Positions 41,501 through 47,500 of a DNA stretch of 64,000 nt are shown here, piece by piece. Made by a program: the position numbers. The stretch is from Carcharhinus longimanus (taxonomy: Eukaryota), in NCBI GenBank assembly GCA_030264375.1, contig JASCQW010000105.1:46828594-46892593 (forward strand), read 5' to 3'. How positions within the stretch are numbered: the first letter of the stretch is position 1; the number at the start of each line of letters is the position of its first letter.

Positions 41501-44500
41501 ACTCCTGAAGTCCAACTGCCAAGCTCAACTTTACAACCGCTGCAAAACGAGTTTGGATTTGTGTTCAACTGCTGCTCCGTTCTCTGATTTGCACTCTATT
41601 GCTGCTCCACGCTATCAAACTTTTGCTATCTGCTGCATGTTGCACTCTGCCACGCTACCACAGTAATCAGTCTTTTGATACAAGTGCCTTATCCAAACAC
41701 TGGCAGGGATTGTTTTGTATCTTAGAGAAATGGATTGCAGCAATTCCATTTCTGTCCATTTTTAATTTTATTAAATTCAGGTTTTGTTTAAAGTTCAATA
41801 TTTCTGGTGTAATTCCATGATTTTTTTCCACCATCACAACGAATGTAATAGCGTTCAAGGTAATGCCAAGATACCAACAAAGTGCTTTCATGCCAAGATC
41901 GCACATGCTACTTTACAATTTATTTTTGTAAATTTTTGTTTCCTTTTAAAGAATAATGCCAGTAATGCTAACAAAAATACTTAGTACATGTATTTGTGTC
42001 TGTAAGGATCCCATCACTAATTGAAGAACAGTGCTGTTCTCCCACTGCCATGACCACCATTTATTTCTAAACCAATTTGTACTCATTTATTTGATATCAA
42101 AAGTGACCTGGATGTGCACAAATTGGCTAAAGCATTTCCTACATTGCAACAAAAATGAGAATGCAAAGAACTACATTGGCTGAAAAGTGCTCTTGGACAT
42201 CTGGAGCTTATAGTAGAATTTGTGAAGGAAACATATGGATAATTGGTAGAATTCAAATATATTTAAGATATTTTAATTTAGAATTCAGAAAGTGGAGACA
42301 TATTCAAGAATAATAATTTTTACCCGAAAGCCTTTAAACCATACACATGGTCAATTCTTGCTGACAGCTTTGATATCAACAGATGTTAAATAGACCTCTT
42401 TTGTACTATGTATAAAGTAACACTAGGGTCCTTCAAGTTCTCTGCACATTAAGCTAAGATAAGAAAACGCTTTAAAGCTTATCTCAAAAGGAATTTTAAA
42501 AGCTTTCATGATGGTATTGTCTCTCTTTTTATCTATCAGAAGATTCTCTTAAAACTACCTCAGCAAATTAGAAGAACAGACTTTAAAAATATATTTTATA
42601 AAATGTTTAAAATTACTTCTATAGAGATAGAAACAATTGAAGGTAAACAGGAAAGATATTCAGGGCATATTTTAGAGTGTTGTGCCATATATCTGGCTCA
42701 CAACATGAATAATAAACCATTTTAACAATTAAATAATAGAGAATAATAAGGGCACATCTAAGGGGATGATTTCATTAAAGAGGCAACACATATTTCTAGT
42801 AAAGAATGAAGTAATCTGGTTTAGAAGTATATAACTGTTCCAGTTTCCTTTCAGAACATTAGAAATATTGTGGAAGGGTACTGACAAAACGCATTCAATG
42901 TTTCTCTGGTTGTTCAGAGGTTGGATATCATAATGCAAGACAGCTTTAAGTTCCAAATGCCCAAAATTTGATTTATGTGGGAATTCAGGTTTGGACATAA
43001 AAATTGTATGTTTTACACATGGCCTGACTCTTCTGCACCTTCAGCTTCAGTTAAGAAGCCATGCTGAAAGCTTGATGTACCAGTGGTGGTGGAAACATGA
43101 CACCAGATTTTCAATCTGTTCTGGATTCTGCAATACCTATCAGACAGAGTTTGCATCAGCTTACAGGGGGCTTGCCAATGTCACCTTAAGGAATGCAATT
43201 TCCCAAAGCATTTGAACCATCCAAGTTGCATACTTCCCAATGTAAGTGTGGAACTCATTTCACCAAGGGACTTTTAAGGATCAATATTTCATCAGGGAAA
43301 CTCTTAAAATGGGGATAAATACTGCTTAAAATACATAGCGAAGTCCAGATGGACTTTTGCTGAAACTTTTTCCAGACACTAACATCCACCTTGTTATATA
43401 GGAAAACATTTCTTAGTATGTCATGACAAAGTTGTGAAAATTTTCACTTTCTGGTTAGCAGAATGTCTGCCTGTACTCGCTGCAGTTAGACCAAAAGAAA
43501 GTGTCCAAATTAGTCTGAAATACTCAGCTATCATCAGATGAAGTTAGGGCGAGACTGCAGAGCAATGCTTCAATGCCGGCAGCTTTCCAAAACCGAATTG
43601 GAGGTTTTAACTTGGCGTGTTTCCAGATTGCATATCCATATGCTGGATGTCCATGTTGCCCTGACATGCATGTACAGCGCACAATCCATACAGTGCACAA
43701 TCCACTTAATTCGGGATTCAGGATGGAAGTAACAGGACAATATCTCTCCATAGTTGTTTTCCTTGGTGGAGACATGATTCAATTTCTCAGACCCAAAGCA
43801 CGTGTTTGTGTGAAGTTGGTTCCTTGAAAGTAGGTGAAAGTGTTTGTTGAGAGAGATTTCCTAATCTAACGTCATTTACTTTTGAGGCCAAAGTTATAAT
43901 CTACTTCAATCTTGCCCATTATAGATATTGCATCAATGTAATGGAACATCTGTGACATATTCCTGAACCTTTTTTTATACTTTGGTAGAACTGTGACAAA
44001 AATAAAGCATTTTTGTTTACAATATATCTTTATTTTGCTTTGTCTGATTTTGGAAGAGTGATCGTGATTAGCTTCATTTACAGAGAGTGAAATGACTAAG
44101 TTTAACATGATTACCATCATGTGTTGCTATTAGTTGCTCAACTGAGCCAGATGCTTCAGTGAGAGATCAAACTAAGCCAAAGCTGGTATCCAATATATAT
44201 TTGAAGAACAGGCCAAATGCATGGTATTTGGCCTGTTCTTCAAATATATATTGGATACCAGCTTTTCTCAGAAAAAAATATGTAAAATTTTGTCTTTCAT
44301 GTGTGTTGAAAAGTAATTTGGTTCGTTCAAATTCAGGCTGCTCTCTGAAACCTTCAGAGTTGATGGCTTCCATGAATTGAGAAGAAAAAACAACGAGGAG
44401 TGGATATTTTTGTGGAAGAGTGAAACAAGGTGCTAAATGTATGCAAATAAGATACAACAATTTCGGAGACTGCTTTTAGTATGCAATTCTGGTCCTAATT

Positions 44501-47500
44501 ACTGATTACCTTTGAATTTGCCTGGAGGGCTAAAGTAGACACCAAACTTAATCAGCACTCAATCACTGCTTAAATGCAATTTTCATGAAGCAGTTATGTA
44601 TGGACTTTGTGCATGTGCTTCGATTTGAAGATGAGGAGTATGCTGGCTGACACACAGTGCCAGATTTTAGGTTGGCGCAGAGATTGAATGAGACAGCGCT
44701 GTGCTTTTTCAAAGGAATGAGTAGTTTTCCTTCTACTTCTATAGATCTCTTATCACCTTGTCAATCAGATTTAGAGTCTTTGTAAACATTGTGGTTGGGA
44801 AAAATGGGGGTACTTGAGATACGTTCAAGCATGAAGGGAAATGTAAATAAACACAGCTGACTGAAATCTGATTAGAAATCCATTAACCTGTGAATTAAAG
44901 CCTACTTCAAAGCACTGCACTATGAAATTGAAAGAGATTGCAACTCTTTTGGATTGCAACTTCCATCCTGAATTCCGAATTAAGTGGATTGTGAGCTGCA
45001 CATGCACGTCAGGACAACGTGGAGAGCCAGCATATGGATATGCAATCTGGAAACAACGCCAAGTTTAATACCTCCAATTTGGTTTTGGAAAGCTGCTGGC
45101 ATTGAAGCATTGCTCTGTAGTCTCTCCTTAACTTCCTCTGATGATAGCTGAGTATTTCAGACTTATCTGGACACTTTTTTTGCCATAGAGAAGGTTTCAG
45201 CTTGCTCTGAAGGCTTAGGAGACTTCAGATAAAAGCTATGTGAATACATTGGGCTGAGTGCAAAGCTGTGGAGAATGAAACATCTCTTCTCTTTCAGAGA
45301 TCCCCAAAGGGGTCTGCTCACATCTGCAGTTTCTTACAGGGAAAAAGGGAAATCCCTGCTGCAGTGTTGCTGTGATTTTAAAAGCCTGCCAGGTGACCAT
45401 GGGACATGGAGATTAAAATGACCAGGTCACTTCAAAATTTTTTACAGCTAGCAGGCAAGAATGAAGAACAGTAGCAGCTTGAAATCACCATGTTAGTGGT
45501 GATCTTCAGCTCTGCCAGATCTAAGAGGGGCCACCATCCTAGGAGAAAGTGGCGAGGTTAACCACTTGCCCCAGACTGAGACCATCCAACCTCCAGGACC
45601 CTCGAGGGATGGTAGCGTAGTGATTAGCACTGCTGCCCCATAATGCCAAGGACACGGGTTCAATTCCAGTCTTGGGTGACTGTGTGTGGAATTTGCACAT
45701 TTTCCCCTGTCCATGTGGGTTTCCTCCAGGTGCACCCACTTCTTCCCACACTCCAAAGATGTGTGGGTTAGGTTGATTGGCTATGCTAAATTAGCCCTTA
45801 ATGTCAGGGGTAAATTTGTAAGAGTTTAGGCATAGGGCCTGGATGGGATTCTCGTTGGTGCAGGCTCGGTGGAGCCTGCTTTTGCACTGTAGGGATTCTA
45901 TGATTCTATGACCGTTCTCTCCAGCTTGGCAGTAGCAAAGTGGCAAATGGGCTCTGGACAACCCTCAGGGCTCAATGTGCCAGACAAGGTGTTAGTGTCA
46001 GGGGCAGTGCACTGTTGACACTGTCAAGGCATGTGGCCTGACTGGGGGATCTGAATGAGGAGTCTGAATCGGGAAGGGGCTTAGTGGGGGGAGGGGTTGT
46101 GGGGATTGAAAGTATTCAATAGAAACAGCAGAGAATGATTTCAAACTGTCACAGTGAAGATTTATCACTATCTTAAACCCCCATCACAGCTTCTTGCTTG
46201 GGCTGGCACAGTTGCATAGAGTTTTCTTCCAGATTTCTGAGCATTCATTAAATGCTTTTCCCTATAAATCCATGAAACTTCAATGAAACTTACTTTAACT
46301 TCAGAGCAAACGTGTGTGCTTTCTAAATTCAGTTCCCCAGCAATCTTGCAGGATTTCTTATTCGATAACTTGAAACTATTTCATTCTCTTCATTCTGTGG
46401 TGGACACACACTGACTGTCCTTCTGTATTTTCCTGTGTCTGTGTGTATGTCCCTGGAACAGCATCACTGGGCAGTAGCAGTTTGTTCTGCTTTATTTTTT
46501 TTCCTGAAGTCACTAAACTATTAACTCCTTTTTAAACCTTCTCTTCATTTCAAAAATTGCAAAACATTATTAAAAGTACATGGACACAAAGAGGGCCTCC
46601 AGACCTCCCAGCACCTCACAAAATACTCCAAATGAAACTGGAGTCGTAGTTCACAGAATCATTCAGTGCAAAAGGAGGCCATTTGGCCTACTGAGTCTGC
46701 AGCGACCACAATCCCTCCCATGCCCTATCCTCATATATTTACTCTAGCTAGTCCCCGTGGCACTAACGGGCAATTTAGTATGGCCAATGCACCTAACCCA
46801 CACATCTTTAGATTGTGGGAGGAAACCAGAGCACCCCGAGGAAGGCCATGCAGATACGGGGAGAATGTGCAGTCTCCACACAGACAGTGACCTAAGCCGG
46901 GACCCTGGCACTGTGAGGCAGCAGTGCTAACCACTGTGTCATTGTACCACCCATTTCATCTTCCTTAACACACAAATACAATTAGAAATTAAATTTAAAG
47001 TTACACATTATTCCTAGAGCCTTTTTTCACTGAATGTATCTTTACTGTATGTTATGAAATATCTACTTAAATTTCTGCCACTGCATCACCTCTGAATTAT
47101 CCCAGTTCACTTTATCTAAGATCACATGCCATGCAGCCTCATTAATGAGTACCATCACGTGACTTAAGTGATAATCAGCTTTGTGACTTGCTGGGCAGTC
47201 ATATTTAGCACAACCTTAAACTCCTTTACCAGGCGGTGCCTTGATTTAAATTTGAGCACACCCCTACATCCAGCTTTAGACGCCAGTTGAGCTGTTTAGG
47301 AGGTTCAGTCTCATCTGAGCAAGCTATTGAAAATTCATAGTTCAGGCCTGCAATCAAAAACTATTTGTTAGTTTTTACTTACTCATGGGGATAGTTCTCG
47401 CGAATGTCATATCTATATTGCCTCATTGCAAGTTGAATAAATGTGAAGCCTAAGTTTTATGAGGGCAGATAAGGGGCAGATGGAATTTAACCCAGAAAAG

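What the first reader, a model, noticed from the sequence alone, without database searches (positions are those of the whole stretch)
43492..45182. Nested inverted-repeat locus: ~230-bp arms around a 1.2-kb unique spacer holding a perfect hairpin
Seen: 43492-43730 and 44959-45182 are reverse complements at ~92% identity. Their homology stops sharply at both ends, they match no other repeat in the window, and no frame gives a recognisable protein. The spacer has no SINE/LINE or transposase remnant and contains a separate perfect 40-bp palindrome. Inference, three options: (a) an unclassified long-TIR or foldback DNA transposon (I see no clear TSD); (b) a long-range dsRNA pairing in an intron or lncRNA, which could be an ADAR substrate or drive exon looping/circularisation; (c) a head-to-head pair of small RNA genes. 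Arm differences are mostly transitions (by my count about 6 G-U-compatible versus 4 A-C on the + strand), which fits neutral decay as well as selection.
Basis: partly seen in the sequence, partly recalled or inferred. Interest (0 to 1): 0.7.

Follow-up and report, generated by a model that had tools for sequence, protein, structure and literature searches.

The report
Decaying inverted duplication with inner palindrome
Two ~230-base stretches of non-coding fish-type DNA are mirror copies around a 1.2-kb spacer that holds a small perfect palindrome; it looks like an ordinary, neutrally decaying local rearrangement or a transposon relic, not a gene.

Summary
Bases 43492-43730 and 44959-45182 are reverse complements: 206 of 222 aligned bases match (92.8%), with a 16-nt and three 1-nt indels. 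A perfect 40-nt palindrome with a 7-nt loop lies at 44179-44265.

Arms and spacer have no other copy in the 64-kb window. I found no coding remnant, no Rfam family at its cut-off and no tRNA. Neither arm folds better than shuffles.

Transposon hallmarks failed:
- no target-site duplication above chance;
- no inner direct repeats of the IR/DR type;
- no transposase remnant.

The arm differences look neutral. CpG columns differ 5 of 15 against 11 of 207 elsewhere. G-U-compatible changes are 6 on + and 4 on -.

Best reading, confidence about 0.45: a one-off local inverted duplication, from a staggered-break micro-inversion or replication template switching. The palindrome would be a second, smaller template-switch product. 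A non-autonomous long-TIR transposon remains a live rival.

No eukaryotic genome collection was on hand, so copy number and orthologous empty sites stayed unchecked. Interest is low.

The parts
43492..43730 (+). Left arm of the inverted repeat (239 nt)
   Evidence: Aligned to the reverse complement of 44959-45182: 206 of 222 aligned bases identical. Also found.
43673..43704 (+). 16-nt tandem duplication inside the left arm only. It accounts for the 15+1-nt gap between the arms.
   Evidence: TRF period 16, 2.0 copies, 93% matches; gap in the arm alignment.
43731..44958 (.). Spacer of 1228 nt. It is unique in the window, AT-rich (36% G+C) and has no recognisable coding remnant.
   Evidence: blastn and nhmmer find only the spacer itself and its own palindrome. 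Pfam found nothing above cut-off in the ORFs scanned. G+C.
44179..44265 (.). Perfect 40-nt-arm palindrome with a 7-nt centre. It sits about 115-120 nt left of the symmetry centre of the large repeat, so it is nested but not concentric.
   Evidence: 40 of 40 complementary. Folds. It matches 13 different miRNA models, four of them on both strands, all below their gathering scores.
44959..45182 (-). Right arm of the inverted repeat (224 nt)

Best explanation
The locus is a one-off local inverted duplication of about 225 nt of unique, non-coding DNA, now decaying neutrally.

One event copied a stretch in reverse-complement orientation about 1.2 kb from its source. Two mechanisms fit. The first is a small inversion whose one end was a staggered break: fill-in plus end joining leaves the inverted segment flanked by an inverted duplication. 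The second is a replication template switch to the opposite strand and back.

Afterwards the two copies accumulated substitutions (with an excess at methylated CpGs), three 1-nt indels and a 16-nt tandem duplication.

The 87-nt perfect palindrome in the spacer is a second, independent and probably younger small inverted copy, of the kind that short-range template switching makes in one step.

Shown here: the anatomy, the lack of transposon hallmarks, the neutral substitution pattern, and the lack of any RNA-family or protein signal. Inferred: the mechanism of origin and the absence of function. If the region is transcribed, the arms and the palindrome would form dsRNA by default, not by design.
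For: Against a transposon:
- No target-site duplication. At the exact boundaries 0-5 bases match for k = 2-11. The best over offsets of +-6 is no better than at random position pairs 1690 nt apart (48-99% of the random pairs that passed the N filter, of 500 drawn, do as well; exact matches).
- With arms only 7% apart, an 8-nt duplication should still match at 7 or more of 8 positions in about 89% of cases (my arithmetic).
- Sharp boundaries on all four sides.
- Arms and spacer are single-copy within 64 kb. The window's real interspersed repeats are multi-copy and much more diverged: a SINE family with about 8 copies at 74-88%, and LINE pieces at 70-76%. The other inverted pairs in the same contig are SINE or LINE copies at 71-82%.
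- No transposase or reverse-transcriptase remnant, no IR/DR inner repeats, no subrepeat arrays.

For neutral decay:
- CpG columns differ 5 of 15 against 11 of 207 elsewhere (p 0.002). The K2P distance is 0.076.
- G-U-compatible changes are 6 on + and 4 on -. Frame-breaking indels separate the arms.

For a local-duplication background:
- The window holds other low-copy local duplications of similar age: direct repeats 58673-58836 / 59671-59834 at 93% and 8335-8449 / 8558-8672 at 88.7%.
- It also holds two older close hairpins: 19638-19759 with 54-nt arms at 81%, and 3374-3441 with 34-nt arms at 82%.

Precedents (passages read only):
- Staggered breaks give inversions flanked by inverted duplications of non-repetitive sequence, including duplication at one breakpoint only (PMC1885836).
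- Template switching makes perfect hairpins in a single event (PMC10710096).
Against: - No outgroup or second genome could be consulted, so single-copy status rests on 64 kb only.
- The arm length (about 230 nt) and, by recall, the overall size (1.69 kb) match IR/DR-type Tc1-like elements. Their inverted repeats are given as 230 bp in PMC5224488. This coincidence favours the transposon rival.
- Short-range template switches catalogued in humans are much shorter: mean 11.6 bp, longest 318 bp. The short-read part of that study discarded events spanning more than 250 bp (10.1101/2021.11.26.470150, passages). A 230-nt copy placed 1.2 kb away sits at or beyond that range.
- The staggered-break precedent is from Drosophila chromosomal inversions, not kilobase micro-inversions in a vertebrate.
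- A perfect 40-nt stem is only mildly unexpected if it were as old as the arms (probability 0.05-0.11). Its younger age is therefore not established.
Confidence: 0.45

Rival explanations
1. A non-autonomous DNA transposon, or its relic, with about 230-nt terminal inverted repeats and an unrelated 1.2-kb interior. It would be mobilised in trans by a transposase encoded elsewhere, with Tc1-like IR/DR elements as the nearest structural class.
For: - Arms of 239 and 224 nt lie at the two ends of a 1691-nt unit with sharp outer and inner boundaries.
- IR/DR elements have inverted repeats of about 230 bp (PMC5224488 passages).
- A TA dinucleotide lies 3 nt outside each arm, at 43487-43488 and 45186-45187 (flanks).
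- The arms are richer in G+C (43-44%) than the spacer (36%).
Against: - No target-site duplication above chance for k = 2-11.
- The 3 nt between each TA and the arm do not match each other (0 of 3). That is unexpected at 93% arm identity.
- No pair of direct repeats inside the arms: 66-68% of 300 shuffles align as well.
- No transposase domain in 32 of the 44 ORFs of 30 aa or more, even at E up to 10.
- No second copy or fragment in 64 kb.
Confidence: 0.25
2. Two independent insertions of the same interspersed repeat of about 230 nt (a SINE- or MITE-like family not otherwise present in this window) landed 1.2 kb apart in opposite orientation by chance.
For: - Chance inverted pairs of interspersed repeats do occur in the same contig. 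SINE copies 45619-45810 against 46754-46935 and 49786-49880 pair at 77-82%, and LINE pieces at 71%.
- Both arms span the same unit from end to end, as full-length copies would.
Against: - No third copy in 64 kb. Two copies placed at random in the window would lie within 1.5 kb and inverted in about 2% of cases (my arithmetic).
- No tRNA-like head, no Rfam match on the arms, and no simple-repeat or A-rich tail at either end.
- The arms are far more alike (92.8%) than copies of the window's real families (70-88%).
- No target-site duplication around either arm was looked for separately.
Confidence: 0.1
3. A selected RNA structure. A long intramolecular dsRNA of about 220 bp plus an inner 40-bp hairpin would act as an ADAR or Dicer substrate (hairpin-RNA or endo-siRNA locus), or would bring splice sites together for circularisation.
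For: - The arms cofold at -367 kcal/mol (+) and -355 kcal/mol (-).
- The palindrome is perfect. It has a probability of 0.05-0.11 of being so if as old as the arms and unconstrained.
Against: - No strand preference among wobble-compatible changes (6 against 4).
- CpG-driven decay. Bulging indels, including a 16-nt one.
- The palindrome matches miRNA models only generically, on both strands and below every gathering score. The nearest to its cut-off, mir-26, scores 44.5 and 44.0 against 57.
- Its loop of 3-7 nt and 40-42-bp perfect stem differ from the preferred pri-miRNA shape quoted in PMC10710096: a 35-bp stem and a loop of 10 nt or more.
- No exon was recognised among 263 ORFs of 60 aa or more across the window.
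Confidence: 0.05
4. An assembly artefact: a chimeric or fold-back join in a gap-rich draft assembly.
For: - The window has 12 N runs.
- The 50 nt on either side of one run are 98% identical, 17974-18023 against 18124-18173. The assembly is therefore rough.
- A perfect palindrome is what a fold-back chimera would give.
Against: - The large arms differ at 16 positions and 5 indels. Artefactual fold-backs give identical arms.
- The locus lies in one gap-free 11-kb contig.
- The 87-nt palindrome has unique, unrelated flanks on both sides.
Confidence: 0.05

Closest known systems
Inversion-associated inverted duplications (staggered-break model; Ranz et al. 2007, PMC1885836, passages read)
   Same: Inverted copies of ancestrally unique, non-repetitive sequence flank an intervening segment. 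There is no target-site duplication. Afterwards the copies diverge by substitutions and small deletions. Duplication at only one breakpoint is an accepted outcome.
   Different: The precedent concerns large chromosomal inversions in Drosophila, often duplicating genes. Here the segment is about 1.2-1.45 kb of non-coding vertebrate DNA. Inversion of the spacer could not be tested without an outgroup.
Template-switch mutations in replication (PMC10710096 and 10.1101/2021.11.26.470150, passages read)
   Same: A reverse-complement copy is made next to its source in one event, giving perfect hairpins. The 40-nt stem falls in the 30-55-base range those authors used for new hairpins.
   Different: The 230-nt arms at 1.2-kb distance lie at or beyond the sizes catalogued there (mean 11.6 bp, longest 318 bp). 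No ancestral sequence is available to infer switch points.
IR/DR-type Tc1/mariner transposons such as Sleeping Beauty and Tdr1 (PMC5224488, passages read)
   Same: Terminal inverted repeats of about 230 bp. By recall, an overall size of about 1.6-1.7 kb.
   Different: No TA duplication at the ends, no two ~30-bp direct repeats per arm, no transposase remnant and no other copy in the window.
Inverted pairs of interspersed repeats in introns (for example inverted SINE pairs that make dsRNA)
   Same: Two ~230-nt reverse-complementary stretches about 1 kb apart can pair if transcribed together.
   Different: The arms are not members of any repeat family seen in the window. They are much less diverged than the window's SINE pairs (92.8% against 71-82%).

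Membership tests
Tc1/mariner, IR/DR subgroup | Long terminal inverted repeats of about 230 bp | tested here: met
   Arms of 239 and 224 nt. Feature as stated in PMC5224488.
Tc1/mariner, IR/DR subgroup | Two ~30-bp transposase-binding direct repeats in each inverted repeat | tested here: not met
   The best local alignment of the outer 60 nt against the rest of each arm scores 8. Of 300 shuffles, 66-68% score as well.
Tc1/mariner, IR/DR subgroup | TA target-site duplication directly at both ends | tested here: not met
   The flanks are ...GAC| and |CCA... The nearest TA on each side is 3 nt away, with 0 of 3 matching bases between it and the arm.
Tc1/mariner, IR/DR subgroup | DDE transposase gene or its remnant between the repeats | tested here: not met
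   Pfam at E up to 10 on 32 of the 44 ORFs of 30 aa or more: no transposase family.
DNA transposons with 3-11-bp target-site duplications (hAT, Mutator-like, P, PIF/Harbinger, piggyBac; the features are recalled) | Direct duplication of the target flanking the terminal repeats | tested here: not met
   k = 2-11, offsets +-6. The observed best never exceeds what 48-99% of random position pairs reach.
Foldback elements (feature recalled) | Long terminal repeats built of arrays of short tandem subrepeats | tested here: not met
   TRF finds only one 2-copy 16-nt duplication, in one arm.
DIRS-like retrotransposons (features recalled) | Inverted terminal repeats without target duplication, plus an internal region complementary to the termini, plus RT and tyrosine-recombinase genes | tested here: not met
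   Inverted repeats without duplication are present. No internal match to the termini or flanks and no RT or recombinase domain.
Penelope-like elements with inverted pseudo-LTRs (features recalled) | Hammerhead ribozyme motif in the repeat, and RT/GIY-YIG coding interior | tested here: not met
   No hammerhead or other Rfam match on the arms at E up to 10. No RT or GIY-YIG domain.
SINE pair | tRNA-, 7SL- or 5S-like pol III head and a repeat or A-rich tail; multi-copy | tested here: not met
   ARAGORN finds 0 genes. Rfam finds nothing on the arms. No other copy in the window. Genome-wide copy number was not testable.
miRNA precursor (mir-26 and others) | Score at or above the family's gathering cut-off on one strand | tested here: not met
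   mir-26 scores 44.5 bits (+) and 44.0 (-) against 57. There are 17 sub-threshold matches to 13 different animal and plant miRNA families, four of them on both strands.
Local inverted duplication (staggered-break inversion or template switch) | Reverse-complement copy close to its source, no target duplication, source sequence unique | tested here: met
   Uniqueness was tested in 64 kb only.
Local inverted duplication (staggered-break inversion or template switch) | An ancestral state with a single arm (and, for the inversion model, the spacer in the opposite orientation) | not testable with these tools
   No eukaryotic genome collection was on hand.

The most novel reading that the evidence does not exclude
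The nested structure is a lineage-specific hairpin-RNA locus. A transcript spanning 43492-45182 would fold into a ~220-bp dsRNA stem and an inner 40-bp perfect hairpin. Processing would give endo-siRNA or miRNA-like small RNAs, or the stem would loop out an unannotated exon for circularisation. Selection or intrastrand gene conversion would keep the inner palindrome perfect.
Probability: 0.04. Interest if true: 0.55.

Novelty: new member of a known kind. Interest (0 to 1): 0.15.

Why it matters
If the best reading holds, the locus is one more example of small-scale inverted duplication in a repeat-rich, non-coding stretch of a fish-type vertebrate genome. It is useful mainly as a marker of a mutational process (staggered-break micro-inversion or template switching), and the window shows that process at several ages. 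It would matter more only if the arms proved to be the ends of an unclassified transposon family, or if the structure were transcribed and processed.

Tried and rejected
**Protein-database route to copy number.**
- The arm ORF 43514-43732:+ found no candidate in the search for homologous proteins.
- A control with an ORF from a SINE that has about 8 copies in this window (45496-45780:-) also found nothing. This route therefore has no power, and says nothing about copy number.

**Exhaustive phmmer with arm ORF 43519-43824:+.**
- It gave 3 hits, with E from 1e-6 to 1e-4.
- Each is a weak 24-29-bit match summed over near-identical tandem repeats of an unrelated protein. The three cover different parts of the query.
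- I rejected them as artefacts.

**TCCA motif.** It occurs 7 times in the left arm and 6 in the right, which looked like subterminal binding sites. However, 9% of 1001 window-wide 239-nt segments have some 4-mer at 7 or more. Rejected.

**Weak Pfam hits in locus ORFs.** KDM6_GATAL, LD_SV2, zf-Sec23_Sec24 and ASFV_J13L scored E 0.028-0.16, all below their cut-offs. Rejected.

**Residual symmetry.** I looked in the spacer halves and the outer flanks and found none.

**Host exons.**
- I scanned 263 of the 274 ORFs of 60 aa or more. The other 11 lie in the locus and were covered.
- Only RVT_1 appeared: twice above its cut-off and once below. ALKBH8_N appeared once; by recall it is a motif common in LINE proteins. 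There was also one sub-threshold zinc-finger hit.

**Is the contig human?**
- The window's SINE has a tRNA-type box-B-like head and a fish-type body, by recall.
- I do not take the contig for human.

**Not done or not possible.**
- No supplementary files were opened.
- Two paper-tool calls failed on term format and were re-sent corrected.

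
Full report
**Observation**

The finding is in the sequence as described. A local alignment pairs 43492-43730 with the reverse complement of 44959-45182. It has 206 matches, 16 mismatches (10 transitions, 6 transversions) and 19 gap columns. That is 92.8% over aligned bases.

The repeat finder gives the same arms as three ungapped blocks, and it reports the perfect 40-nt palindrome 44179-44218 / 44226-44265 with 7 nt between the arms. 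The largest gap is a 16-nt tandem duplication found only in the left arm, at 43673-43704.

Homology ends abruptly on all four sides. Neither the arms nor the spacer recur anywhere in the 64-kb window, by blastn with word 7 or by nhmmer with a two-arm profile. The locus sits inside one gap-free contig, 40378-51421.

**Context**

The window is vertebrate-like: 39.7% G+C, CpG observed/expected 0.22, and 12 N runs. It is full of retroelement debris.
- A tRNA-type SINE family has about 8 copies at 74-88% pairwise identity, and LINE pieces sit at 70-76%.
- Pfam on 263 of the 274 ORFs of 60 aa or more gave only RVT_1 (three times, one below its cut-off) and one ALKBH8_N motif. No host exon appeared. 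The other 11 ORFs lie in the locus and were covered.
- No Rfam family reaches its cut-off in the window, and there is no tRNA gene.
- An Alu-head motif is absent.

I do not take the contig for human. Whether the locus is intronic or intergenic is unknown.

**What the arms are not**

*Not coding.* Pfam at E up to 10 on 32 of the 44 ORFs of 30 aa or more overlapping 43400-45300 gave nothing above a cut-off. The 12 left out are 30-62 aa long: five lie outside the locus and seven overlap it. Three 1-nt indels shift every frame between the arms.

*Not structured RNA genes.* No Rfam match at E up to 10 overlaps an arm. Each arm alone folds like its shuffles (z 0.12 and 0.29).

*The palindrome is not a recognisable miRNA.* It matches 13 different animal and plant miRNA models, four of them on both strands, and all fall below their cut-offs. 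The nearest to its cut-off, mir-26, scores 44.5 and 44.0 against 57. That is the generic signal of a long perfect stem.

**Transposon tests**

By recall, a cut-and-paste element inserted recently enough to keep 93% arm identity should still show its target-site duplication. None is present.
- At the exact boundaries the flanks match at 0-5 positions for k = 2-11.
- Allowing offsets of +-6, the best match is never better than what 48-99% of random position pairs reach.
- A TA lies 3 nt outside each arm, but the three bases between it and the arm match at 0 of 3.

The IR/DR subgroup of Tc1/mariner has 230-bp inverted repeats, each holding two ~30-bp direct repeats, and TA targets (PMC5224488, passages). 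Only the repeat length is met here. Inner direct repeats are absent, since 66-68% of shuffles align as well. No transposase remnant was found.

Other families also fail. Foldback-type subrepeat arrays are absent. So are a DIRS-type internal complementary region and Penelope-type ribozyme or RT/GIY-YIG signals. The defining features of those three families are recalled, not looked up.

An apparent enrichment of TCCA in the arms is not unusual.

**Pattern of decay**

- Columns that are CpG in either arm differ 5 of 15 times, against 11 of 207 elsewhere (Fisher p 0.002). The K2P distance is 0.076.

This is what methylated, unconstrained DNA does. If co-transcribed, the arms could still pair (-367 and -355 kcal/mol).

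**The palindrome**

It folds at -72.6 kcal/mol as RNA (z -14) and is not centred on the large repeat. If it were as old as the arms and unconstrained, it would stay perfect with probability 0.05-0.11. A younger age is therefore likely but not proven.

The window holds two older close hairpins: 54-nt arms at 81% at 19638-19759, and 34-nt arms at 82% at 3374-3441. It also holds low-copy direct duplications of similar age to the arms: 58673-58836 / 59671-59834 at 93% and 8335-8449 / 8558-8672 at 88.7%. Small local duplications, direct and inverted, therefore seem to be a background process here.

**Best explanation (confidence 0.45)**

The locus is a one-off local inverted duplication.

One mechanism is a micro-inversion with a staggered break at one end. 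Fill-in and end joining then leave the inverted segment flanked by an inverted duplication of unique sequence. This was described for 17 of 29 Drosophila inversions, with duplication at one breakpoint as an accepted outcome (PMC1885836, passages).

The other mechanism is a replication template switch. It is documented to create perfect hairpins in one step (PMC10710096, passages). The catalogued events are much shorter than 230 nt, with mean 11.6 bp and longest 318 bp (10.1101/2021.11.26.470150, passages).

The palindrome fits the template-switch class well. The large arms fit either mechanism less securely.

**Rivals**

| Rival | Confidence |
|---|---|
| Non-autonomous long-TIR transposon | 0.25 |
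| Chance inverted pair of an unseen repeat family | 0.10 |
| Selected dsRNA structure | 0.05 |
| Assembly artefact | 0.05 |

Against the artefact, the arms differ at 16 positions and 5 indels.

**Limits**

The protein databases have no power for non-coding repeats: a control ORF from the window's own multi-copy SINE found nothing, so the null result for an arm ORF is uninformative. The three weak hits of the exhaustive search are repeat-summing artefacts. Copy number, an empty site, spacer orientation in relatives, read support and transcription all stayed unchecked. These are the tests that would decide the matter. Papers were read as passages only, and no supplements were opened.

**Verdict**

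The inverted repeat with a nested perfect palindrome is real and well measured. It carries no sign of function and fails the transposon hallmarks that could be tested. It is most likely an ordinary local rearrangement in neutral DNA. Interest is low (0.15).

Noticed in passing
window 58673-58836 and 59671-59834: Direct repeat of 164 nt at 93% identity, with start-to-start spacing of 998 nt. It has no other copy in the window and about the same divergence as the inverted arms. It could be a local duplication or short LTR-like ends.
   Followed up: partly
window 19638-19691 / 19706-19759 and 3374-3407 / 3408-3441: Two further close hairpin-type inverted repeats: 54-nt arms at 81% with a 14-nt loop, and 34-nt arms at 82% with no loop. 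They look like older counterparts of the perfect palindrome and show no obvious sequence likeness to it.
   Followed up: no
window 8335-8449 and 8558-8672; 61044-61188: A 115-nt direct repeat at 88.7%, 223 nt apart, and a 72-nt unit repeated twice in tandem at 98%.
   Followed up: no
window 6434-6623, 10009-10333, 13388-13486, 20999-21129, 22319-22430, 45619-45908, 46652-46953, 49659-49988: About 8 copies of one tRNA-type SINE family at 74-88% pairwise identity. They include inverted pairs next to the locus, such as 45619-45810 against 46754-46935 at 77-81%. This is the ordinary kind of inverted repeat in this window.
   Followed up: partly
window 17974-18023 and 18124-18173: The 50 nt on either side of an N run are 98% identical. 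This is a sign of rough assembly around gaps. The gap itself was left alone.
   Followed up: no
window 32456-32696: A GT-rich block of degenerate 17-, 25- and 51-nt tandem units next to a (GT)15 microsatellite.
   Followed up: no
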